In this document: positions 25,102 to 42,079 of the stretch, in pieces | Layout of the letters: each line of letters starts with the position of its first letter | Numbering within the stretch: the stretch's first letter is position 1 | NCBI RefSeq assembly: GCF_030144855.1 | Contig: NC_082708.1 | Coordinates: forward strand, 147,932,001-147,996,000 | Direction: 5' to 3' | From: Hypanus sabinus | Lineage: Eukaryota | DNA length: 64,000 bases | Made by a program: the position numbers and the translations under genes | Notes under the pieces: model-generated | The model's input: only the letters and a program-made list of their open reading frames with translations | Told to the model about the DNA's origin: nothing | Databases searched by the model: none

Positions 25102-26789
25102 ATACAGAGCCCCAAGGATGATCAGGAGTCCAAAAGTCAAGGCCCACTGGATAGAGCCTGCTGAGCAAGTCAATGCCCCATGTCTGTGTCTATTGAAGGA
25201 TGGATGCTGGAAGCCTGTCCTGTCCTGGAGTTAAAGGACCATGTATGGGGGAAAGAAGGAATGGGGCTTGTTTTTTCTGTTGTTTGATATTTGTGTCTAT
25301 ATTGTTTTGCTGAGCATTGTGGTCATGCCCACGTGTGGCAAAACTTGTAGGCTGTCCCCTGCCCTTTGTCGTGTGTGTATCAGTTGTTAAAGCAAATAGC
25401 ACATTTCACTGAACATTTCAATGTACACAATGATAAATAAATTTATATCTTAAATTGAGAAAGCCAGAAATCAAGAATCTGGTAGATAAAGTGAGACAGG
25501 ACAAAGTGAACCCATTTCACTTTACATGGCATTCTTGCTACAGTAGTATGGAAACGAACACCAGTGTAAGAAAGCACCATTTCCTCTGAATAGACTCCAA
25601 TCTGAACAATGGTTGGCCATCTCACTGGTATGCACCTGATTCCCAGAATCCATCCCATTCCTAAATGTTGTGTAGTTACTATTTCAGTAATATTGTAAGT
25701 TTATTGTTTGGTTAAGCATTTTTAGTTTAAATAATTAATTATGCGGTATATGTAAAAGTATGTAAATGACATAAGTCATCATGCCTCCACATCATATGTG
25801 TGTAACTAGCGTAAACAAGTTATTCCTGACTCCACGTTTTCTTTCAATTAATTCTATGTTTTGGAGTTACAGAACTTAACAGTGATAATGACAAAGTTTT
25901 AAATGAACCCAAGATGATTACTTACTTGTGGAAGTGAAGTGAGACAATCAAGTTTTAAAAAAGCACAGTGAGAAGCAGTTGAAAGAAAAAAATGAGCACA
26001 GCATGTACTTCATCAAGAGGTGGCTGGGTTAAAAAAAAGACAAATTCATGGGTTCATAAACAGTAAGTACCGGGTGATAATAATCATAAATAATAAAAGA
26101 GCAGAAATGGCTGGCTACACTGGAAAGATTGATGCACTCAAATGCACCACAGATAACTGGATTTTGTATATGGAATGATTTGAGTGGTATTTTGAAGCAA
26201 ATAGAATAGCCAATGAAAAGGATAGCCAATAAAGAGGATTCAAAAGGAAGAAAAGCATACATGGCTGAATTGAAACAATTGTGTGAGCATTTCAGTTCAA
26301 TAATAGGCTTAATGATTCACTGAAATATTGTTCAGTTTGTGGAATCTTGGAAGAAAGCATTAAAAAGTGGCTCCTAATTGAATCACAGCTTACATTTAAA
26401 AGAGGAATTGAAATAGCTGTACAAATGGAAACAGCAACCAAAGTGCAATTGACTTGCAGTCAGGAATGAAAGTGAGCATGGACGAAAGTACAGCATGTAG
26501 ATGAAAGCCTGTCTGGCCAAACAAATTGTGTTACCATTGTGGCAGGGACTCTTATACACTGGACCAATGCAGATTTAAAGGCAAAACTTGCAGAAAATGA
26601 AACAAAGTAGGACAAATACAAAGAGCATGGCAGTCAGATAAAAATAAATGGACTGCACTGGGTAGAGAACAGGACAAAAATTCAAGTTGCAGTTTCATGT
26701 TTTTGAAGAAAAATCTGATAATGATGATAGTGATGCAGGACTACGTAGCCTTGAGATTTACAATGTGAAGACTAACAACAGACAAGCAA

Positions 26790-29700
26790 CTTGGCTTACA
26801 CTAGAATTAGCAATAAAATAATTAAAATGAAATTGGACACTGGCTTGGCTGTTCCAACCATTCCACAAATTGAGTTTGAATGGCATTTCAAAGATACTGA
26901 ACCGAAGTCCGCAGATATCCAAGAAGTTATACTGCAGAAAAGATAATTTCTATGGGGATGACATTTGTAACCAGTAAGATATAACAACCAAAAAGCCATA
27001 TTGGACTTGTATGGTTCAAAAAGAAGAGGACCAGCTTTTGGGGCCGTAATTGGCTGCAACAATTATAACTTGATTGGAGAACTATTCACTATTTGCATGC
27101 CACATCCTCTGCAATAGAGTTAATGAAAAGTGAATTAAGCAAAGTACTTGATGACGCCACAGAAGTGTTCAAGTATGGCATTGGAAACCCCAAACATATC
27201 AAGGGTAATATAATGGTAAGTAAAAATGCCTCACCTATCTCTTGCAAAGCCCATCTGGTTCCTTATACCTTCTGTGATAAAGTAGCCAGTGAGCTAGATC
27301 ACATGGAGACTCAAGGAATTCTTTCCAAGGTTGAGTGGAGTCCATGGGCAGCATCGGTAGTCACAGTAGCTAAGAAGAATGGGTCTGCCAAGATTTGTGG
27401 TGATTTTAAGGTTACCATCAATCAAGTGCTGAAAGTAGATCAATACCCTCTGCTCAGGATAGAAGATATCTTTGCAAACCCTTCTGGAAGGAAACTCTTC
27501 AGCAAAGTGGACTTAGCTGAGACCTACCTACAGATGGAGATGGAAGAAGAGTCCAAAGTGTTTCTCACCATAAACATTCACAAAGGGCTTTATCACTATA
27601 ATAGGCTTATTTTTGGAGTGGCAGCTGCTCTTGCACTCTGACGGAAAGCTATGGACCAGGTGCTGGAAGGCTGTCCAGGCACTCAGTGATACCTTGATGA
27701 CATCATTGTTACCAGTGAGGATGACAAGGAATATCTCCAAAATCTCAGGATGGTGTTAGAAACATTACAAGATTATGGGCTCAGAATACAATGCATCAAG
27801 TGTGATTCTTTAAACAAATCATCACTTCCTGTGGTCACACCATTGATGCACAAGTATTACACAAGTGAGCTGAGAAAATTCAAGCAGTGGTGGATGCCTC
27901 AAGGGCAAAGGATGTGTCACATTTACAATTCTGTTTTAGGATCTGTCAATTAATATAACAAGTTCCTGCCAAACCTGGCTACTGTGCTCCAACCCTTGAA
28001 CTCACTATACAGATCAGGAAGAAATGGCATGGACAAAGCAGTGTGAGGTGCATTTCCAAAAGACAAAGGAAATGGTGATATTAGACATTGTACTCACACA
28101 TTATGATTCACATTGTGCAGTGAAGTTTGCCTATGATGCTTTGCGTTATGGTGTAGGTGCAGTCATGTCACATTTTATGAGTGATGGAAGTGAATGCCTC
28201 TAGCCTTTGCATCACGTTCTCCTTCCACTGTGAGAAAAATTATGCACTGATTGACAGAGAAGCTTTGAGTCTGGGGTTGGGGTGTAAAACTTTATAACCA
28301 GTACTTGCATGGGAGAGAGTTTACCCTCATTCCTGATCATCAACCACCTTTTCCAGCCCACTGAAGGGTATTCCATTAACAGCAGCAGCAAAAATGCAGA
28401 CATGGGCTCTGTTTCTTGGCTGACACAATTATAAGATCAAATTCAAGAGGACCACTAATCAAAGAAATGCTTAGAAACGGAAACACCAAAAAAAATTACA
28501 AAAAGAGGACACTCTACTTGATATATTCTCCCTAATACAAATCAACATTGTTTATTTATTATTAATTTATAGAAATACAGCACAGAATAGGCCCTTCCAG
28601 CCCTTTAAGCCAGACCACCCAGCAACCCCCGAGTTAACTTTAGCTTCATCATGGGACAATTTACAATGACCAATTAACCTTTCAGCCAGTATGTCTTTGG
28701 GCTTTAGAAGGAAAGTGGAGCACCCAGAAACACATGCAGTCCTGGGGAGAATGTACAAACTCCTTACAGACAGAGGCAGGAATTGCACCTGGGTCACTGG
28801 TACCGTAAAGTGTTGTGCTAACCACTATGCTACTGAAAATATCTTTATTATGACAGAGATGATCCAAAGGGAAAGTGGAAAAGACCCCACACTGTCTCAA
28901 ATCTACGTGGCAATTCAAAATGGCTGGAATATGCAGCAGAAACTCTACATCCCTCTTTTTCTCTGGCACCAGGATGAACTTGTTCTTGACAGAGGTTGCT
29001 TATGTCGGGTTTCAGAGTTGTTGCACCATCCAAGCTGAGAGGTAAAATGTTGGAGAAGCTACATTACAGTCATCTAGGTGTGGTCAAAATGAATCTTTGT
29101 CTGTTAGCCTGGGATAGATCAGAATTTCCAATAATTTGCCATGCACTGTTTGGGATGCCAACATGTACAGAAGATGCCAAGAGCAGCACCTCTCCAACCC
29201 TGGGAATATCCTATATTGTCCTGGTGGACGATTCAAGTGAATTTTGCTGGACCATCATGGGCACAAATTTCTTAGTAGTAGTGAATGCAGCTACAAAGCA
29301 TCCTGAGGTGCTCCCAATAACCTCTACTACAGCCTCGCATACTGTTGATATGTTGAGAAGCCTCTTCTCAAGGACTGGTGATCCAGAACGCTTTGTCAGT
29401 GACAATAGACGGCATTTTCTTGTGAAACAGCTTCAGTCATTCCTAAAAGTGAATGGAATAAGATATAATACATCTGCACTGAACCACCCAGCTACACTTA
29501 CATGATGGAAATGTCTGTTCAGAGTCTACAGAACGCATTGCGAGCAACGTCAACAGAACACACTACAATGACACTGAATCAGAAGCTTTCCAATTCTCTC
29601 CTTGCATATCACAATGCAGCACACTCCACAACCATCAACTCACCAGCCATACTGTTCACGCGCTGTCCCTTGTGCTCACATTTGGATCTCCTCAAATCCA

Positions 29701-29790
29701 AACTTAGAAAGGAGTATACAGGACAAACAGCTGAGAGAAATTGAGGGCTCCCCAAACATGGACGTTCGATGATTGGTGCCTGGATAAGCA
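26790..29790 (+). pseudogene. Gypsy pol remnant (PR-RT-RH-IN)
   Basis: MKLDTG; WSPWAASVVTVAKKNGSAKICGDFKVTINQVLKVDQYPL; YLDD; LHYSHLGVVKM; PERFVSDN; many stops. Confidence 0.9.
28548..28832 (-). mobile_element. HE1/V-SINE inserted in Gypsy pol
   Basis: tRNA-like head, V-domain (CTGTCTGTAAGGAGTTTGTACATTCTCCCC...CCAAAGAC), CR1-like tail with TAAA repeats. Confidence 0.85.
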
Positions 29791-29793
29791 GTC

Positions 29794-30160
29794 TCTAATG
29801 TTGAATCAGGTTTGCGGGTCTGGCAAGTGAGACAGAATACACGGACAGTAAATAAGTATAGTACTCATTAGTTACAAACAGTAAAAAATGAGCTAACATT
29901 CATGTTCCTCAAGTTACAAGAACTACAATGCTGAATATTCAACAAACATACTTACGCAGAGCATACCTTTCCAATGGATATGTACACCTCTTAAACAAAG
30001 GAAGAGAGAGCAAGACTCATCCATGTGTTATTTTATACCCAGGATATTTGACACTGGACACCAGGCAGCAAAATAATGGAAAAAGCAGCTTCAGTTTCTT
30101 AACTATCCAATCATGACAGTGGCTTTTGACAATCAGAATAAGCTCTGCACCCCACAGACA
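29794..30160 (-). repeat. ERV 3' LTR
   Basis: Paralogous to 33045-33449; preceded on the minus strand by the purine tract AAGAGGTGAAG. Confidence 0.9.
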
Positions 30161-30234
30161 CTTCACCTCTTGAAAGTTGTGAACATGATGATCCAACCCT
30201 CAGTCTAGTATGACTCTTGGGAACTCTCAACTAA

Positions 30235-30785
30235 ACATCATATCAAATACAAAAGCACAATACCCAGAACTGTAAGCCCAATAGTCACCCCCCCCCCCCC
30301 CCCCGTATACTACTGTAGTCCACCAGTTCCCTATCCCCCACAGAGGCCTGTAGACCCATCCCGGAATGTAATAGCTAATGAGCTGGTCATCCACTTTATC
30401 TTTTGCACTGACGCTTGACCAATAATAGTACTAGTGCCACCTTCCTTTGTGAACAGGTAATCTAAAGTCATTGAAATCAGCTCTTGGGACTGTCTGGCCA
30501 TACTGTGCTGAGAAAGGCCACCATTCAAATCCTCCCTTCCTTTGTAATAGCCCTCTTACCAATGTGCTCATGGACAATGTGCTCATCCAGAGCACTGGGG
30601 TTACATTCGTATGGCACCACTGATCAGCTGCACCACCCTGTGGGAGCCATGGGTAGGCCTAGGAACTGCATATCCAGTAAGTGTCATTCAACATCCAGCA
30701 AGTACCCACCTTCATAGCAGCTTTGGCATAGACACAGCCATCCCACAACACTATTCTTGTTCACATTTACCATCCACTTTGCATT
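30235..30785 (-). pseudogene. env: Retroviral env remnant (SU C-terminus, cleavage site, ISD-like motif, TM anchor)
   Basis: LNDTYWICSS*AYPWLPQG; GKR/AIT; TLDYLFTKEGGTSTIIG; WGIGNWW...VTIGLTVLGIVLLYLI. Confidence 0.8.
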
Positions 30786-32643
30786 AATTGATTGAATTTT
30801 TTGAGGATGTGATTAAACACGTTGATGAAGGTAGAGCGGTCGATGTAGCTTATATGGATTTTAGCAGGGCATTTGATGAGGTACCCCATGCAAGGCTTAT
30901 TGTGAAAGTAAGGAGGCATGGGATCCAATGGGACATTGCTTTGTGGATCTAGAACTGGCTTGCCCACAGAAGGTTGTAGACGGGTCATATTTTGTATGGA
31001 GGCCGGTGACCGGCAATGTGCCTCAGGGATCTGTTCCAGGACCCCTACTTTTTGTGATTTTTTATAAGTGACCTGGATGAGGAAGTGGAGGGATGGGTTA
31101 GCAAATTTGCTGATGACACAAAGGTTGGGGGTGTTGTGGATAGTGTGGAGGGCTGTCAGATGTTACAGTGGGATATTGCTAGGATGCAAAGCTGTGGTGA
31201 GAAGTGGCAGATGGGGTTCAACCCAGGTAAGTGTGAGGTGGCTCATTTTGGTAACTCAAATATGATGGCAGAATATAATATTAATGGTAAGATTCTTGGC
31301 AGTGTGGAGGATCAGAGGGATCTTGGGGTCCGAGTCCATAGGATGCCCAAAGCAACTGTGCAGGTTGACTCTGTGGTTAAGAGAGCATGCAGTGTATTGG
31401 CCTTCATCAACCGTGGAATTGAGCTGTGCGAGGGAGCAGAAGCGAGGCAAGCGGGCAGGAGTCCGTGCCAGGTAAAAAGCAATCCCTAGCCAGCCGACCC
31501 TCCCATCCATTCTGCTCTCCAATGTCTGCTTGCTGAGGGAATCGGGCCTGCAGTCCTCGGAGTCGCCTGATGCCGGTGGCCGGTTGGGGACGTAGTAAGC
31601 GATGTGCGAGGAAGCGGAAGCGAGGCGAGCGGACAGGAGTCCGTACCAGGTAAAAAGCAATCCCGAGCCAGCTGGCTCTCCTGTCCATTCTGCTGTCCAA
31701 TGGACATTAAATTGAACTACATCTGTGGCAACGAAATACTCGGCAGGAGTACAGAAACGGACAGAATCCCGGATGCTGCCATTCAGCTGTTTATTTATGT
31801 AACAGATTTTCCCTCAAGCCATCGGACTACCAACCCTCCAACCTCTGCTGTGCCTATTGTCTTGTTTATTATTTATTGTAATGCCTGCACTGTTCTGTGT
31901 TACCTTATGCAGTCCTGGGTAGGTCTGTAGTCTAGTGTAGTTTTTGTGTTGGTTTACCTAGTTCATTGTAGTTTTTGTATTGTTCATGTAGCACCATGGT
32001 CCTGAAAAACATTGTCTCGTTTTTACTGTGTACTGTACCAGCAGTTATGGTCAAAATGACAATAAAAAGTGACTTGGCTTGAAGAGCCGAGAGGTAATGT
32101 TGCAGCTATATAGGACACTGGTCAGACCCCACTTGGAGTACTGTGCTCAGTTCTGGTCGCCTCACTACAGGAATGACGTGGAAACTATAGAAAGGGTGCA
32201 GAGGAGATTTACAAGGATGTTGTCTTGATTGGGGAGCTTGTATTATGAGAATAGTTTGAGTGAACTCAACAATTTTTCCTTGAAGCGACAAAGGATGAGA
32301 GGTGACCTGTTAGAGGTGTACAAGATGATGGATAGTCAGGGGCTTTTCCCCAGGGCTGAAATGTCTAGCATGAAAGGGCATAATTTTAAGGTGCTTGGAA
32401 GTAGGTACAGAGGAGATGTCAGGGGTAAGTTTTTTACGCATGGAATAGGCTGTCAGTGGTAGTGGTGGAGGCGGAAACTACAGGGTCTTTTAAGAGACTC
32501 CTGGATGGATACATGGAGCTTAGAAAAATAGAAGGCTATGGGTTAGCCTAAGTAGTTCTAAGGTAAGGACATGTTTGACATAGCGTTGTGGGCAAAAGGG
32601 CCTGTATTGTGCTGTAGGTTTTCTATGTTTCTATGTTTTTATG
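30786..32643 (+). mobile_element. CR1 3' half inserted in the ERV
   Basis: YMDFSRAFD, SKFADDTKVGG, LVRPHLEYCAQFW; (TTTCTATG)n tail. Confidence 0.9.
31424..32082 (+). mobile_element. Non-autonomous Rex1/Babar deletion derivative inserted in CR1
   Basis: KRGKRAGVRAR...PSILLSNV head, duplicated with ~178-bp period; tail AATAAAAAGTGACTTGGCTTGA; interrupts the CR1 GIE/KSREV codons. Confidence 0.75.
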
Positions 32644-33023
32644 AGTCTGAACCATCAGCAATGATCCTCTCAGAGTAACACAGTGCTGGCTGAGATTTCT
32701 AATTCGTTCTTAAGACTTGCTATCATTTTATACTGGCATCTTACAATCACTGCAAACAGCTAGAATGCACCCTGCCAGCTATCTTTTAACCTGGGAAATC
32801 CCAACAATTTAAGTTTCGAATCAATATGGCGTTCCATTTCAAACCCAGCGAAATCTAACTCGTTTGACCAATATACCAGCATTCCATAACCCATCAGTAG
32901 GTTAGCAAAACTTCAAAGTCCTCACTATTATCTGTCTACTCTGGGATTCTGCACCTCTCAAAAAGGGGAGTCCTCTCTTTTAAATAACCTTTCAAAGAAA
33001 TGAATGCCTGCTCAAATAGCCAG

Positions 33024-33041
33024 ATCCTACTTGCAACACCA
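33024..33041 (-). promoter_or_regulatory. ERV primer-binding site, best match tRNA-Leu
   Basis: TGGTGTTGCAAGTAGGAT, 3 nt from the LTR; 14/18 to TGGTGTCAGAAGTGGGAT. Confidence 0.55.
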
Positions 33042-33044
33042 AAA

Positions 33045-33449
33045 TATAATGTTGAATCAGGTTTGCAGGTCTGGCAAGTGAGACAGAAAACACTGATTGC
33101 AAATAAATATATTAATCATTTATTTACAAACAGTAAACATTCAACCAAGCATTCACGTTCCCCAAGTTACAGAAACTACAAAGCTGAATATTCAACATAC
33201 ATTGAATGAACATACATAATGAAAAGTGAGTGCAGAGCATACCTTCCCAATGGTCATGTGCACCTCTTGCCTTAAACAAAGGAAGAGAGAACAAACCTCT
33301 ATCATGTGCTATTTTATACCTGGGATATTTGAAACTGGACACCAGGCAGCTAACCAATGGGAAAAGCAGCTGCAGTTTCTAAACTAACCAATCATGACAA
33401 GGCAACTTTCGACAATCAGAATAAGCCATGACCCCAACCCCCACCGACA
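33045..33449 (-). repeat. ERV 5' LTR
   Basis: Paralogous to 29794-30160; minus strand starts TGTC. Confidence 0.9.
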
Positions 33450-34374
33450 CAGTCCTGGCGAGGAACTACAGAGGTGATCAAAAGAGGGCTACTGGATAAG
33501 ATTAAGGACAGAATGGACCACTCTCCTACACAGTGGAGATTATGTCTGATATCAACTGGAGATGACACACCGATCAGTTGGGGAGAGCAGACTCAATTGT
33601 TAGAGAAGAAAATTGTCCAGAACTGTCAGAACCACTTCCTCCAGTCCCAGAGTAAACTCCTACAACCAGAACCTGAGATTTTTTTATAGCCTCACCTGCC
33701 AGGTAAAGTGACCAACCACTCCTTGTAGGAAGAACGTTATCACACAGGAGTAAGAATCCTCCACAGTGATTAGATCTTTGGGCCTAAATGGGACAATTTA
33801 AAATTTATGATGCTGTTGGTACCTATATAAGTGGTTCCATTATATGGTATACAGTAATATTTGAGTAATATTATAATATATTGTTTGATTAAGCATTACT
33901 ATTTGTTTAAATGATGTATTACAGGTTAATATGTAAAAGTATGTGAATAGCATACAAGATCATCTAGCACGTCATATGCGCATTCCTTGCTAAAAGTAAA
34001 AATGAAACTAGAGTAGACACGTTGTTCTAGGCTCCATGTTTTCTTTCAACTAGTTTATGTTTTGGAGTTACAAAACGTAACATTGAAACCACTGAGTTTT
34101 CCTCCACCAGTCAGCATGAAGGAAAGCCTACAGTTCCCTTGGTTGCTTCAAACTTTGCAATGATACACACACGACCAGATAGTCATTGGAATATTGCACA
34201 TAAATCATTTCGCACACAGTTCACAAAGCAAAGGAATTTCTGAACTATTATTGCAACAACTTCACCCTTACTTCAGTTGTTACACAACAGGAGGAAAATG
34301 TATGTATTACAGTACACCAAAATTATAGTTGCAACCCCCACCCCAATTATTTTTCAGAGAGGAATTTATAATGA

Positions 34375-36645: not shown

Positions 36646-38591
36646 TTCAGAGTATCAATTTTTCATTGATAGTCTTTCATTGATCCTATTGAATTTCTTT
36701 GTTCCATTGTGAATGCCTGCAAAAGAAAGGATCTCAGTATCATATATGGCAACATGTACATAGTTTGATAATAAAATTAATTTGTACTTTGAACTATGGT
36801 AATACTAATCATATGGCCAAAGTATGAAAATAACACAGAAAAGACAATGGCATCAGGGTTAAGAAGTAAATCTGACAGAAATGTGAAATTAAAATTAGTA
36901 TTCCAGTTACTGGTGTTCAGAGGGAAACGTGAAACTAAATTACAGATATCCATGTGCTGTAAGCAAAAAACATTAATGTTTCATTGATGAAGCTTCAGGA
37001 TATTTCAGATGCTGTAATATAGAGCAAAACAAAAAACTACTGGATGAATTTAATGGATCAGGCAGCATCAATATGGGAAAACAGACAGGTTAGCAGTCTA
37101 AAAAATAGGGTGATAGTTTGAGGTTTATCCACTACCCACAGCTCCCAGGTCAGTTTCAGTAGCTTCTGAAACTGGAATCGGGAATCAGATATAGGACTCG
37201 GTAGTCACTACACTGCCCCCTCCCTCAGAAATTTATGGCAAAATTCTTGATTAAAGATCAATACTTAGTTAGATTTAAATATGCTACTCAGCAACTTTAG
37301 CATCCAGCATTAAAGGATTTATGACTCGCACTAAGTGATTCACATTCTTCCAGGCATTCTACACCATTATCTGTAGAAAGTTTCAAAATCTTATTTTCAT
37401 TTTGCTTTTGATTTTGTAACCAGGGTCAATAAAACATCACAAAACCTCAGTAAATTTATTTTTAGTGACATGTACTTTGTCACCACAGGTAGGAAATTAT
37501 AGCCAAGGGCAGTCTGTTGTTAGGACTGATCTGTGATTGGCAAAATATATTGAAAGCTTTACTTCTCTCATGTTTAGATGACAGCTTCAAAGGATTCCCA
37601 GGGAAATCATCTTTACTCCCAACATCTCCAGTGTCAGATTCACCTTATGCTTTTATGTTTGCTGGGAGTTCTCTTGAAATTTAATTACCTGCCACTGCCA
37701 ATTCTGCATAATTCTTGTCTGACGTTGTTCCCTTTTAGCTATCTAAACTCTAAGACTGAAATAAGCATACATAGGGAGGAATAAAAGTTGAATTATAGTT
37801 ATTAAGTCACAGGACTAAAACAGCTCAGAAGGAATCCAATATGCCCAACAAGTCTGAGCTGGCAGTAAGCAGTCACATTCAGCCTCTCTTACTCCATGCT
37901 GCTCTCTCATGTATATACCCAGTATTCATATGATGGTGCTAATCATATCTGTATGTGCTATCCTTCTCTAGAAACATTAATTGGTGCAGAATGAACAATC
38001 CCCACCAAGCGAATATAGACTGGTTCTCATGGGGACGGATAAGTCCCACATCAATGTGACAGAGACAAGAGAGACACATTATTATAGAAAAGTTAAAGGG
38101 AGTTTTGCTTTGCATCATTCTGAGTGGTTGCAGCTGGCAATGGATCAACATTTAATTGTTTATTTTGCCTTAGCGTTTATACTCCTGATAATGTATCAGA
38201 CCACATTCAACATCTAATTGGACCCCACTATACTTTCTCAGTAAGTGACAAGCATGGTTAGTGTTTGATTCTCAGATGAATAATGAGCCAACCAAATGAG
38301 CATGAATGAAATTAAATAGCTTTCCACTGCAGCCTCTTACTTGAAGCTTGAGACATCCAATAACCATCTGCTTATTGGAGTATACTTACATGGACAGATT
38401 ATCACTACATATACTAGAACAGCAGACTGGTTCAGTCAATAAGTATTAATTGGCATTCAAGAAAGCAGGTTAGCTGTGGCATGCTGTCTTTCAGACTTGT
38501 AACAATCAAAATCTACATCTCGTGTCAAACAGAAATAGATTACCCACCAACAATGTGTACACTGGTTTTAATAGGAGCATTCATCATCTTT

Positions 38592-39086
38592 GAGGACTCT
38601 ATAGTTAGGGGGGCAGATAGGAGATTTTGTGGGGCAGATCGGGAGTCTCAGATGGTATGTTGCCTCCCTGGTGCCAGGGTCCGGGACATCTCAGATCAGG
38701 TGCAGGCTATTCTTGAGAGTGAGGGCATGAACCCAGATGTAGTGGTCCATGTAGGGACCAATGATGTAGGTAAGGTGAATGAGGGGGTCCTGCTTAGAGA
38801 GTTCAGGGAGTTAGGAGTGAAGCTGAAAGGCAGGACCTCCGGGGTGACAATCTCGGGATTGCTACCTGTGCCACGTGCGAGTGAGGCAAAGAATAGAATG
38901 ATTATGCACATTAATACGAGGCTGAGAGCATGGTGCAGGAAGGAAGGGTTCAGGTTTTTGGATAATTGGTCTTTGTTCCAGGGACATTGGGATCTGTTTT
39001 GAAGGGATGGTCTACATCTGAACCGGAGGGGTACTAACACTCTTGCAGGAGTATTTGCCAGTGCTGCTCGGGGGGGTTTAAACTAG
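38592..39086 (+). pseudogene. CR1 ORF1 C-terminal SGNH/GDSL esterase domain
   Basis: DSIVRG, PGAR, HVGTND and DGLHLN blocks; one TGA at 39000. Confidence 0.9.
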
Positions 39087-39088
39087 AT

Positions 39089-42079
39089 GTGCAGGGGGCA
39101 GGGATCCAGATCCAGAGAGTTGGTCAGAAGGTGCATGGGGTTAAATGTGTACAAGGTTTGGGTGATCTTGAGAAGGTCATCAAAATTCAGGGTGCAATTT
39201 GCCCGATGGAAGTTCAAGGAGCTGGGTTAGGTACAGTAGACAGTGTTTTAAGCAAAGAGAGGAGGAATGGGCTAAGAATTCTATACTTGAATGCGCGTAG
39301 TGTCAGAAATAAGACAGATGAGCTTGAAGCTCAGATGAAAATGGGGAACTATGATATTGTTGGGATAACGGAGACATGGCTGCAAGGGGATCAGGCCTGG
39401 GAATTGAGTGTACCAGGGTATACGTGCTATCGTAGAGACAGAAATATGGGAAGAGGGGGTGGGGTGGCCTTGTTGGTGAGGAATGAGATTCAGTCATTAG
39501 CAAGAGGTGACTTGGGAACAGGGGAAGTAGAGTCTGTGTGGATTGAGCTGAGGAACAGTAAGGGTAAAAAGACCCTAATGGGTGTTGTGTACAGGCCCCC
39601 AAACAGTAGCGTGGATATTGGGTACAAGTTGATTAGGGAGTTAACATTGGCATGTGCTAAAGGTAATGCAGTCGTTATGGGAGATTTCAACATGCAGGTG
39701 GACTGGGAGAATCAGGTAGGTGCTGGACCCCAGGATAGGGAGTTTGTGGAGTGTCTAAGGGATGTATTTTTGGAACAGCTTGTGCTTGAGCCAACCAGGA
39801 ACGAGGCTATTTTGGACCTGGTGATGTGTAATGAACAGGAATTGATAAGTGATCTTGAAGTAAAGGAGCCATTAGGAAGTAGTGATCATAACATGATAAG
39901 TTTTTATCTACAATTTGAGAGGGATAGGGGCAGATCAGAGGTGTCAGTGTTGCAATTAAATAAAGGAGACTACGGAGCCATGAGGGATGAGCTGGCCAAA
40001 GTTAAGTGGGCAGATGCCCTGGCAGGAAAGACAGTGGATCAGCAGTGGCAGATATTCTTGGGCATAATACAAAAGATGCAAAAGCAGTTCATTCCAATGA
40101 GAAGGAAGGATTCAAAGAGGGGGAAGGGGCCACAGTGGTTGACAAAGGAAGTCAGAGATTGTATAACATTAAAGAAAAAGAAGTATGACAGGGCTAAGAT
40201 GAGTGGGAATACAGATGATTGGGAAAGTTTTAAGGAACAGCAGATCTTAACTAAAAAAGCAATATGGAGAGAAAAAATCAGGTATGAGCTCAGTCTAGCC
40301 AGGAATATAAAAGGGGATAGCAAAAGCTTTTTTAGCTATGTGAAGAGAAAGAAGATAGTTAAGAACAATGTTGGCCCCTTGAAGAATGAATTGGGAGAAA
40401 TTGTTATGGGAAACAGGGAAATGGCAACAGAATTTAATGCATACTTTAGATCTGTCTTCACCAGGGAGGACACAAACAATCTCCCAGATGTATGGATGGG
40501 CCAGGGTCATAAGATATCAGAGGAATTGAGACAGATTGACATTAGGAAAGAAACTGTGATGACTAGACTGGTAGGACTGAAGGCTAATAAATCCCCGGGT
40601 CCAGATGGTCTGCATCCGAGGGTTCTAAAAGAGGTGGCTCAGGAAATTGCGGATGCATTGCTAATCATTTTCCAATGTTCCTTAGATTCAGGATCAGTTC
40701 CTGAAGATTGGAGAGTGGCTAATGTTGTCCCACTTTTCAAGAAGGGAGGGAAGGAGAAAACGGAGAACTATCTCCCTGTTAGCCTAACGTCAGTCGTGGG
40801 GAAGATGCTTGAGTCCATTATTAAGGACGAAATAGTGGCACATCTAGATGGCAGAAATGGGATTAGGCCGAGCCAGCATGGATTTACCAAGGGCAAATCA
40901 TGCTTGACTAATCTGTTGGAGTTTTTTGAGGGTGTAACAAGGATGTTAGATGAGGGTAAGCCAGTAGATGTTGTGTACCTAGATTTTCAGTAGGCATTCG
41001 ATAAGGTGCCACATAGGAGATTGGTGAGTAAAATCAGAGCTCATGGCATTGGGGGCAGGGTTTCAACATGGATAGAAAACTGGTTGGCAGATAGAAAGCA
41101 AAGGGTAGCAGTGAATGGGTGTTTCTCAGACTGGCTGGAGGTGACTAGTGGGGTACCATAGGGCTCTGTATTGGGACCACAGCTCTTTACGATTTATGTC
41201 AATGATTTAGATGAGGGCATTGAAAACTATATCAGCAAGTTTGCTGACGATACTAAACTGGGTGGCAGTGTGACATGCGAAGAGGACGTTAGGAGAATAC
41301 AGGGAGACTTGGATAGGCTGGGTGAGTGGGCAGATACTTGGCAGATGTCATTCAATGTGAATAAATGTGAAGTTATCCACTTTGGAAGCTGGAACAAGAG
41401 GGCAGAGTATTGTCTGAACGGTGTTGAGTTAGGTAAGGGAGAAATGCAAAGAGACCTAGGAGTCCTAGTTCATCAGTCAATGAAGGTGAATGAGCAAGTG
41501 CAACAGGCAGTGAAGAGGGCAAATGGAATGTTGGCCTTTGTTACAAGGGGAATTGAATACAAGAGCAAGGATGTTCTTTTGCATTTGTACAGGGCCCTGG
41601 TGAGACCACACCTGGAATATTGTGTACAGTTTTGGTCTCCAGGTTTAAGGAAGGACGTTCTGGCAATTGAGGAAGTGCAGCGTAGATTCACTAGGTTGAT
41701 TCCTCGGATGGCAGGGCTGTCTTACGCAGAGAGATTGGAGAGATTGGGCTTGTACACACTGGAATTGAGGAGATTGAGAGGGGATCTGATTGAAACGTTT
41801 AAGATAATTAAAGGATTTGATAGGATTGAGGCAGGAAATATGTTCCAGATGTTGGGAGAGTCCAGTACCAGAGGGCATGGATTGAGAATAAGAGAGTTAT
41901 TTAAAACAGAGTTGAGGAAGAGCTTCTTCTCCCAGAGAGTTGTGGAGGTGTGGAATGCACTGCCTCGGAAGACGGTGGAGGCCAATTCTCTGGATGCTTT
42001 CAAGAAGGAGCTGGATAGATATCTGATGGATAGGGGAATCAAGGGATATGGGGACAAGGCAGGGACGGGGTATAGATAG
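39089..42079 (+). pseudogene. CR1 ORF2 (AP endonuclease + reverse transcriptase) with two premature stops
   Basis: Single frame; GITETWL, MGDFN, SDHN, KFADD; TAG at 40991 and 41159. Confidence 0.95.

What the first reader, a model, noticed from the sequence alone, without database searches (positions are those of the whole stretch)
29794..33449. Pol-less endogenous retrovirus with gamma-type env, Leu-like PBS and 5-bp TSD
Seen: paired LTRs, TSD CAGTC, PBS and PPT. After removing the CR1, only ~1 kb of internal sequence remains: a possible gag start (32644-33020) and env motifs TYWIC...AYPWLP, KR/AIT, LDYLFTKEGG..IIG and a Trp-rich plus hydrophobic anchor. Known: LDYL..EGG is the distal half of the gamma-type immunosuppressive domain; Leu priming with 5-bp TSDs typifies class III/ERV-L elements, while gamma-like ERVs usually make 4-bp TSDs. 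Inference: a mosaic, possibly undescribed chondrichthyan retroviral lineage, or an env-bearing LTR retrotransposon.
Basis: partly seen in the sequence, partly recalled or inferred. Interest (0 to 1): 0.75.

Follow-up and report, generated by a model that had tools for sequence, protein, structure and literature searches.

The report
Decayed fish-type retrovirus fossil, envelope remnant
This is an old, broken retrovirus-like insertion with paired end repeats, a 5-base target duplication and a decayed gamma-type envelope gene but no polymerase; it likely belongs to the already described class III-type retroviruses that carry such envelopes, so it is a new copy of a known kind rather than a new kind.

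Summary
The anatomy is real. On the minus strand lie two LTRs 13.9% apart, an exact 5-bp duplication (CAGTC), a PBS and a PPT. The element sits inside a Gypsy integrase and is split by a CR1-type LINE that holds a 660-bp insert. Pfam finds no env in any single frame. A block test against natural fish-type env proteins does find the SU-end, furin, fusion/heptad-start and distal ISD blocks in order (score 103, next best in the window 43; 0 of 500 shuffles). The env is frameshifted, lacks about 45 residues and has no CX6CC. The 'gag start' got no support from any search. The PBS fits Leu-CAA at 14/18 and Ser-CGA at 13/18, so Leu is not settled. Related species hold matching pieces 2-4% apart and many more LTR than internal copies. 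The combination called a mosaic (TGT..ACA ends, 5-bp TSD, Leu or Ser primer, gamma-type TM) is published for class III-type ERVs: XtERV-S, a bullfrog ERV, ERV3/ERV4, and SnRV-related ERVs in fish. With no pol, the class cannot be proven here. Verdict: new member of a known kind; interest 0.25.

The parts
29789..29793 (.). Target site duplication CAGTC, left copy
29794..30160 (-). 3' LTR, 367 nt, TATA box at 30037
30161..30171 (-). Polypurine tract, 10 of 11 purines, directly before the 3' LTR
30172..30788 (-). Decayed env remnant (end of SU and TM), spread over all three frames with stops, frameshifts and internal deletions
30229..30285 (-). Hydrophobic membrane-anchor-like stretch (mean Kyte-Doolittle 2.28 over 19 codons, one stop inside), after a Trp-rich stretch and a G run
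30415..30471 (-). Distal immunosuppressive-domain block; the CX6CC motif that should follow is absent
   Evidence: rank 1 of 128,000 positions
30466..30507 (-). Weak fusion-peptide-end / heptad-start block; most of heptad repeat 1 and the proximal ISD are missing
   Evidence: rank 88 of 128,000; weak on its own
30543..30566 (-). Furin-site-like SU/TM junction block
   Evidence: rank 2 of 128,000
30641..30685 (-). SU C-terminal Cys/aromatic block shared with fish-type gamma env, one stop inside
   Evidence: rank 1 of 128,000
30789..31422 (+).
31423..32082 (.). 660-bp insert nested in the LINE: a 100-nt direct repeat (178 nt apart) plus a high-copy 3' part
32083..32643 (+). LINE second part with a short tandem tail
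32644..33023 (-). 5' internal remnant: leader or decayed gag start, not resolved
   Evidence: no hit; related copies cover it
33024..33041 (-). Primer binding site, 14/18 to Leu-CAA, 13/18 to Leu-CAG and to Ser-CGA (human tRNA ends)
33045..33449 (-). 5' LTR, 405 nt, TATA at 33318, AATAAA at 33124
33450..33454 (.). Target site duplication CAGTC, right copy
25990..29788 (+). Host element, upstream part: decayed Gypsy-type retrotransposon (gag-like start, RT, integrase); start approximate
   Evidence: (rve E 4.6e-9)
33455..33700 (+). Host element, downstream part: continuation of the same integrase end; end approximate

Best explanation
This is a decayed, pol-less LTR element with a gamma-type env remnant and a 5-bp target duplication, likely the provirus of a class III-type (non-class I) retrovirus that was likely fixed in the germ line and has likely decayed neutrally since. 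Shown: paired LTRs, TSD, PBS, PPT, ordered env blocks, nesting inside a Gypsy integrase, later LINE and 660-bp insertions, related copies in other species. Inferred steps: (1) a tRNA-primed retrovirus with a gamma-type envelope was reverse transcribed, and its integrase made a 5-bp staggered cut in an older Gypsy copy; (2) several kb holding most of gag, all of pol and the first part of env were lost, most likely after insertion, at the spot where the LINE now sits; (3) stops, frameshifts and deletions removed about 45 residues between the SU block and the ISD, and also the CX6CC motif. The remnant would make no working protein. The family spread to hundreds of LTR places, mostly solo LTRs, as ERV families usually do. 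Within class III in the broad sense (clade Huo: ERV-L/ERV-S, ERV4, SnRV-like) I cannot choose.
For: Env: four blocks from 4 natural fish-type env proteins fall in order, chain score 103.2 against 43.2 for the next place in the window and 0 of 500 shuffles; without the ISD block, which was the fetch pattern, 56.0 against 31.2 and 0 of 500. A frameshift-aware profile of 7 fish-type envs puts its best window score on the ISD block (29.8 bits, next 26.3; 0 of 200 shuffles). On the two strongest blocks the top 5 of 24 envs are fish-type, all above the 15 exogenous-type ones. Class: in crocodilians 15 of 15 ERV1 groups have 4-bp TSDs, against 5-bp in 22 of 22 ERV4, 2 of 3 ERV3 and 3 of 5 unplaced groups (PMC4299795 Table S2). 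TGT..ACA ends and 5-bp TSDs are described for class III, and the bullfrog class III ERV has a Leu PBS with a gamma-type TM (PMC8278194). Both candidate primers, Leu and Ser, are the class III ones; the elephant shark SnRV-like ERV has a PBS matching the Ser-AGA end (read by eye). The PPT is broken by a T, like those of the shark and bullfrog elements and unlike the G-run PPTs of the fetched gammaretrovirus-type genomes; weak. The best ISD match (L025/L027, 11 of 19 identical) rides on an RT that groups outside class I (95/91, long branch). Age and family: matching pieces in organisms A, B and C differ by 9/392, 23/622, 10/366 and 10/278 bases; summed depth over the 5' LTR is about 8-25 times that over the adjacent 5' internal remnant in run X1.
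Against: No pol is present and no pol-bearing relative was retrieved, so the defining RT test is missing. The class rests on one TSD, the termini and a degraded PBS. Pfam gives 0 families for 6 of 6 frames of the remnant. Protein database searches found no true relative. This env type also rides on class I pol (L028 falls among class I; epsilon-related ERVs with gamma-type env). The PBS needs 4-5 changes from any tested tRNA, more than the LTR divergence predicts (P = 0.03 for 4 or more). The block anchors were chosen after I had seen the sequence. The profile of mammalian gamma envs does not single the locus out (18.1 bits, 4 of 200 shuffles, not top in the window).
Confidence: 0.7

Rival explanations
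1. A class I (epsilon-related) ERV with a gamma-type env, whose TSD is atypically 5 bp at this locus or in this family; the 5' remnant would then be a long non-coding leader.
For: Epsilon-related ERVs with gamma-type env are described in anamniotes; two of three elephant shark lineages are epsilon-like; L028 has this env type with a class I RT; the 5' remnant shows no open frame.
Against: Exact 5-bp TSD, not 4, against 15 of 15 ERV1 groups with 4 bp. L028 and the similar envs L026, L030 and L032 match the SU block poorly. The PPT is unlike the class I G-run type.
Confidence: 0.18
2. On how pol was lost (compatible with either class): the element was already deleted when it inserted, as one of a non-autonomous subfamily copied in trans by an intact helper, like the deleted XtERV-S copies.
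For: It keeps exactly the cis parts (LTRs, PBS, 5' end, PPT), as do the 19 deleted XtERV-S copies. The 5' internal and env parts have similar summed depth in other species.
Against: The junction between the two remnants is occupied by a 5'-truncated LINE, as expected if the deletion came with or after that insertion. No joint linking the two remnants directly was among the 15 joints shown; 2,239 were not shown.
Confidence: 0.3
3. A Gypsy-type (non-retroviral) LTR retrotransposon, or a non-autonomous derivative of one, that captured a gamma-type env.
For: TG..CA ends, 5-bp TSDs and Leu-CAA-type primers also occur in fish Gypsy elements (recalled, not from a call). No retroviral gag or pol is shown here.
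Against: The env lies in the retroviral position, directly before the PPT. The 5' remnant shows no likeness to the Gypsy gag or to anything else in the window. All these features are already explained by class III ERVs.
Confidence: 0.05
4. The env motifs are chance, and the element is an LTR pair around non-coding DNA.
For: No Pfam, PDB or protein-database hit.
Against: Ordered block chain far above every other place in the window and above all 500 shuffles, with SU-to-furin spacing (about 40 codons) inside the 40-50 residue range of intact envs.
Confidence: 0.02

Closest known systems
XtERV-S and the African bullfrog ERV (class III gag-pol, gamma-type TM; PMC8278194)
   Same: TGT..ACA ends, 5-bp TSD (XtERV-S), Ser or Leu PBS, gamma-type TM with the non-mammalian ISD/chain-reversal pattern, internally deleted copies and many solo LTRs.
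   Different: Those have pol with dUTPase to prove ERV-L kinship; here pol is gone. No sequence likeness of LTR or gag was scored. The host here appears not to be a frog (not shown).
ERV3 and ERV4 of crocodilians and turtles (PMC4299795)
   Same: Mostly 5-bp TSD with a recognisable env.
   Different: Defined by RT phylogeny, not testable here. ERV4 was reported only from crocodilians and turtles.
SnRV-related ERVs: CmiERV lineage I of the elephant shark (PMC4422223); class III SnRV-related ERVs with gamma-type env, e.g. ERV-SA.a-Ppe (bioRxiv 10.1101/2021.11.23.469661); clade Huo (PMC6001957)
   Same: Env-bearing, non-class I, TGT..ACA ends and a T-interrupted PPT in CmiERV lineage I; present in cartilaginous fish.
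   Different: CmiERV lineage I has a longer LTR that shows no likeness by eye, and a clean Ser-type PBS. The host of ERV-SA.a-Ppe is not named in the text I saw; that 'Ppe' is a sawfish is my guess.
Fish-type gamma env in fetched loci L025/L027, L029, L031, L033
   Same: SU-end block, furin site and ISD block in the same order; best scores of 24 envs compared.
   Different: Those envs are open frames with full heptad repeat and CX6CC. SU block to ISD is 113-118 residues there and about 71 here. No DNA likeness to any of 61 loci.

Membership tests
Endogenous retrovirus (provirus) | Paired LTRs with TSD, PBS and PPT | tested here: met
Endogenous retrovirus (provirus) | env in the 3' position | tested here: met
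Endogenous retrovirus (provirus) | Retroviral RT/integrase (not Gypsy) | not testable with these tools
   No pol in the element; no genome held; no pol-bearing relative found
Gamma-type Env | Immunosuppressive domain | tested here: met
   Distal half only, rank 1 of 128,000 positions; proximal half deleted
Gamma-type Env | CX6CC motif | tested here: not met
   Absent after the ISD block. Read as decay, so the claim is 'remnant of', not 'intact member'
Gamma-type Env | Furin site, fusion peptide, heptad repeat, membrane anchor in order | tested here: inconclusive
   Furin block rank 2 and anchor present; fusion/heptad block only rank 88 and mostly deleted
Gamma-type Env | Pfam TLV_coat or other env HMM hit | tested here: not met
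   0 families for 3 of 3 env frames read with X at stops; no single frame carries more than one or two blocks
Gamma-type Env, heptad-stutter subgroup | N-glycosylation site in heptad repeat 1 | not testable with these tools
   That stretch is deleted here
Class III in the broad sense (ERV3/ERV-L/ERV-S, ERV4, SnRV-like) | RT groups with class III / clade Huo | not testable with these tools
   No pol
Class III in the broad sense (ERV3/ERV-L/ERV-S, ERV4, SnRV-like) | 5-bp TSD | tested here: met
   one locus only
Class III in the broad sense (ERV3/ERV-L/ERV-S, ERV4, SnRV-like) | TGT..ACA termini | tested here: inconclusive
   Both LTRs begin TGT; neither ends in a clean ACA in the window; related contigs in three other organisms show the canonical end
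ERV-L / ERV3 in the strict sense | tRNA-Leu PBS | tested here: inconclusive
   14/18 Leu-CAA against 13/18 Ser-CGA, human tRNA ends, 8 of 13 table entries tested
ERV-L / ERV3 in the strict sense | ERV-L-type gag without zinc knuckle; dUTPase after integrase | not testable with these tools
   Region deleted; the 5' remnant has no scored hit
Class I (gamma/epsilon, ERV1) | 4-bp TSD | tested here: not met
Gypsy/Metaviridae with captured env | Gypsy-type gag and RT | not testable with these tools
   No pol; no likeness of the 5' remnant to the Gypsy in the window

The most novel reading that the evidence does not exclude
The family is a non-retroviral Gypsy-type LTR element that captured a gamma-type retroviral envelope in a cartilaginous fish, a route to infectivity I did not find described in my searches (none aimed at it alone). 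A milder and likelier novelty (about 0.2, interest about 0.5): it is a strict ERV-L/ERV-S-type, env-bearing lineage in sharks or rays, which would carry that lineage deeper than the frog, reptile and mammal examples I read.
Probability: 0.05. Interest if true: 0.75.

Novelty: new member of a known kind. Interest (0 to 1): 0.25.

Why it matters
As it stands it is one dead copy of an LTR family in several related species, useful as an orthologous marker and as one more sign that gamma-type envelopes travel with non-class I backbones in anamniotes. It would matter more if pol-bearing copies showed a strict ERV-L/ERV-S RT in a cartilaginous fish, which would strengthen the view that env-less ERV-L is the derived state. 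It would matter most if they showed a Gypsy RT.

Tried and rejected
No whole genome is held, so no in-genome census, TSD table or tRNA set. Pfam on 6 frames of the remnant: nothing. PDB sequence search on two env frames and one 5' frame: only chance hits or none. Word-indexed protein search for longer relatives of one env frame (73 candidates) and one 5' frame (54 candidates): none. Full scan of 1.84 billion representatives with one env frame: 1 hit, E 4e-4, a bacterial repeat protein, rejected as chance; the search I then ran with it was wasted. Protein atlas on the longest stop-free 5' frame: three hits under 0.9, no lead; the env was not searched in the atlas. LTR patterns: 0 metagenome matches; 1 viral match, L001, with no wider likeness. 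A narrower env pattern: 0. A looser one: 7 of 7 matches were chance. tblastn of 15 exogenous-type envs against the window gave only the short ISD match at E about 3 (output cut, seen for 4 of the queries). 254 ORFs from the fetched loci against the 5' remnant: no credible match. Search for relatives of the L027 pol in viral contigs: none. Rfam and ARAGORN on the window: nothing. Earlier findings of this scan: none. No RNA holder listed among 21 runs, which says nothing on expression. Absolute dating rejected as uninformative: 35 My at 2.2e-9 or 350 My at 2.2e-10 per site per year (rates from PMC4422223). By eye the 5' remnant has a short aromatic and basic stretch recalling the gag start of the bullfrog ERV (supplement 5); not scored, so not counted.
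Full report
Observation. The element lies on the minus strand. The 5' LTR is 33449-33045 and the 3' LTR 30160-29794; they differ at 51 of 367 aligned sites (p 0.139, K2P 0.154) plus several indels. The flanks carry an exact 5-bp duplication, CAGTC; 4, 6 and 7 bp do not fit. The PBS starts three bases after the 5' LTR and the PPT abuts the 3' LTR. The flanks are two parts of one Gypsy integrase: Pfam rve E 4.6e-9 upstream, collinear across the duplication, and read depth in other species steps down at both LTR edges. Between the LTRs are 401 nt of 5' remnant, a 1,855-nt insert and 628 nt of 3' remnant. The insert is a 5'-truncated high-copy LINE with a further 660-bp insert at 31423-32082, shown by thousands of reads that skip it.

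Env. Pfam gave no family for any of the three env frames. PDB and protein-database searches found no true relative. The motifs are spread over all three frames, so I fetched natural env proteins with generic motif patterns: 16 viral loci, 15 with an env frame, and 9 of 9 metagenome loci with fish-type env. A frameshift-aware profile of 7 of the 9 put its best score in the whole window, both strands, on the distal ISD block (29.8 bits, next 26.3; 0 of 200 shuffles). A profile of 7 of the 15 exogenous-type envs did not (18.1 bits; 4 of 200). For a block test I used 4 of the 9 (L025, L029, L031, L033), leaving out L027 as a duplicate and L026, L028, L030 and L032, which lack the SU motif. The SU-end block ranked 1, the furin block 2, the fusion/heptad-start block 88 and the ISD block 1 among 128,000 positions. 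In order they scored 103.2 against 43.2 for the next place in the window and 0 of 500 shuffles; without the ISD, 56.0 against 31.2 and 0 of 500. I chose the anchors after seeing the sequence, which flatters these ranks somewhat. SU block to furin site is about 40 codons (40-50 in intact envs). Furin site to ISD is about 29 (63-75). So most of heptad repeat 1 and the proximal ISD are gone, and CX6CC is missing. A hydrophobic anchor follows at 30285-30229. This is a gamma-type env remnant of the non-mammalian kind, and it is not intact.

Gag and PBS. The 5' remnant has 9 stops in each minus frame and no hit in Pfam, PDB, the protein database, the atlas, 254 ORFs from fetched loci, or the window itself. 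Leader or gag start cannot be told. Against human tRNA ends from a paper's table (PMC10359600, one passage; 8 of 13 entries tested), the PBS matches Leu-CAA 14/18, Leu-CAG 13/18, Ser-CGA 13/18 (five transitions, no transversion), Ser-AGA and His 12/18. Leu is the best guess, Ser a close second.

Family and age. 11 of 21 listed runs, from 8 organisms, hold part of 29600-30800, none as much as half of its words. I laid 4 of the 21 on 29500-33750 at 80% likeness. Pieces 96-98% alike occur in organisms A, B and C. One in A crosses the LINE-tail/5'-remnant junction by 35 bases, which marks it as the same locus. Two in B and C cross the env/LINE junction by 28 bases, just under the tool's 31-base bar. 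None reaches the Gypsy flank. Other pieces, about 83-85% alike, span the 5' remnant into the LTR and are paralogs. Summed depth in run X1 is 674-729 over the 5' remnant, 313-1,472 over env and 5,700-17,900 over the 5' LTR, with single contigs at about 11-23. The tool warns that this is no copy number, but it fits tens of internal copies and hundreds of LTRs. LTR-LTR distance is about 4-6 times the distance to the matching pieces, so the insertion likely predates those species splits. Published rates give 35 to 350 My, too wide to use. The host was not identified by any search. The window is almost all CR1-like and other LINEs plus the Gypsy copy; a cartilaginous fish is plausible from recalled repeat motifs only.

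How it most likely came about. A tRNA-primed retrovirus with a gamma-type envelope likely integrated by a 5-bp staggered cut into an older Gypsy copy in the germ line. It likely lost most of gag, all of pol and the front of env, took up a LINE at that spot and a second insert inside the LINE, and decayed. Whether the large deletion came before insertion (non-autonomous subfamily, 0.3) or after is open. No function is implied.

Class. With no RT, class rests on indirect signs. The TSD is the strongest: in crocodilians 15 of 15 ERV1 groups have 4 bp, while 22 of 22 ERV4, 2 of 3 ERV3 and 3 of 5 unplaced groups have 5 bp (PMC4299795, passages and supplement 1). Env does not decide. In an RT tree of 19 fetched loci, L027, the best ISD match, groups with the long foamy-type genomes outside class I (95/91, flagged as a long-branch join), while L028, with a similar TM, sits among class I (the labels gamma, foamy and so on for the unnamed viral contigs are my reading from length and motifs). 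I put class III in the broad sense at 0.7, class I at 0.18 and a Gypsy with captured env at 0.05.

Comparison with what is known. PMC8278194 (text parts 1-3 of 8, passages, supplement 7, part 1 of 2 of supplement 5) describes XtERV-S: class III gag-pol, gamma-type TM, TGT..ACA, Ser PBS, 5-bp TSDs, 19 internally deleted copies and over 140 solo LTRs. It also describes a bullfrog ERV with a Leu PBS and gamma-type TM. bioRxiv 10.1101/2024.07.05.601823 (passages) adds further ERV-L-like frog families with env. PMC4422223 (part 1 of 2, supplement passages) reports SnRV-like and epsilon-like env-bearing ERVs in the elephant shark. PMC6001957 (passages, section 7) places class III ERVs in clade Huo, found in all major vertebrate lineages. 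bioRxiv 10.1101/2021.11.23.469661 (part 1 of 6, passages, sections 7-8) finds gamma-type env ERVs in 6 cartilaginous fish, and class III SnRV-related pol with gamma-type env among anamniote ERVs; its supplements are closed and may list this family. PMC5210030 (passages) shows fish foamy-like ERVs have 4-bp TSDs and mostly Lys primers, so they are not the match. PMC9967133 and PMC10536682 (passages) review the env type; the second calls XtERV-S an unusual example, so the pairing is published but not counted as common. I found no paper on this specific family in nine literature searches, which is weak evidence since repeat libraries were not available.

Verdict. A real, old, defective ERV-like element. 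Its env is confirmed as a gamma-type remnant, its gag is unconfirmed, its primer is Leu or Ser, and its feature set matches a published kind. New member of a known kind; interest 0.25.

Noticed in passing
window 31423-32082: 660-bp insert inside the LINE, made of a lower-copy part with a 100-nt direct repeat (depth about 160-210 in run X12) and a high-copy 3' part (about 2,400-3,800) ending in an A-run and short repeats; looks like a composite of two mobile elements.
   Followed up: partly
window about 25990-29788 and 33455-33700: Decayed Gypsy retrotransposon hosting the insertion: gag-like start with a zinc-knuckle-like motif, RT, integrase; several hundred-fold depth in related species.
   Followed up: partly
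window 39038-42079 (+): A young-looking CR1-type LINE with long open frames (651 and 305 aa, endonuclease and RT), preceded by an esterase-like ORF1 piece at 38418-39002 (labels from recalled motifs).
   Followed up: no
window 22111-22530 (-): 139-aa acidic frame recalling the C-terminus of a Tigger/pogo transposase (recalled, not tested).
   Followed up: no
L025 and L027 (metagenome contigs, whole): Near-identical retrovirus-like contigs with open gag (one zinc knuckle), pol with an unusual YCDD active-site motif and a gamma-type env; the RT groups outside class I on a long branch. No relative in viral contigs.
   Followed up: partly
L028 (metagenome contig, 12,410 nt): Retrovirus-like contig with very long open gag (1,013 aa), pol (1,642 aa) and env (752 aa), class I-like RT.
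   Followed up: partly
window 30288-30304: A run of about 17 C (G on the element strand) between the Trp-rich stretch and the anchor, coinciding with a frame change in the env remnant.
   Followed up: no
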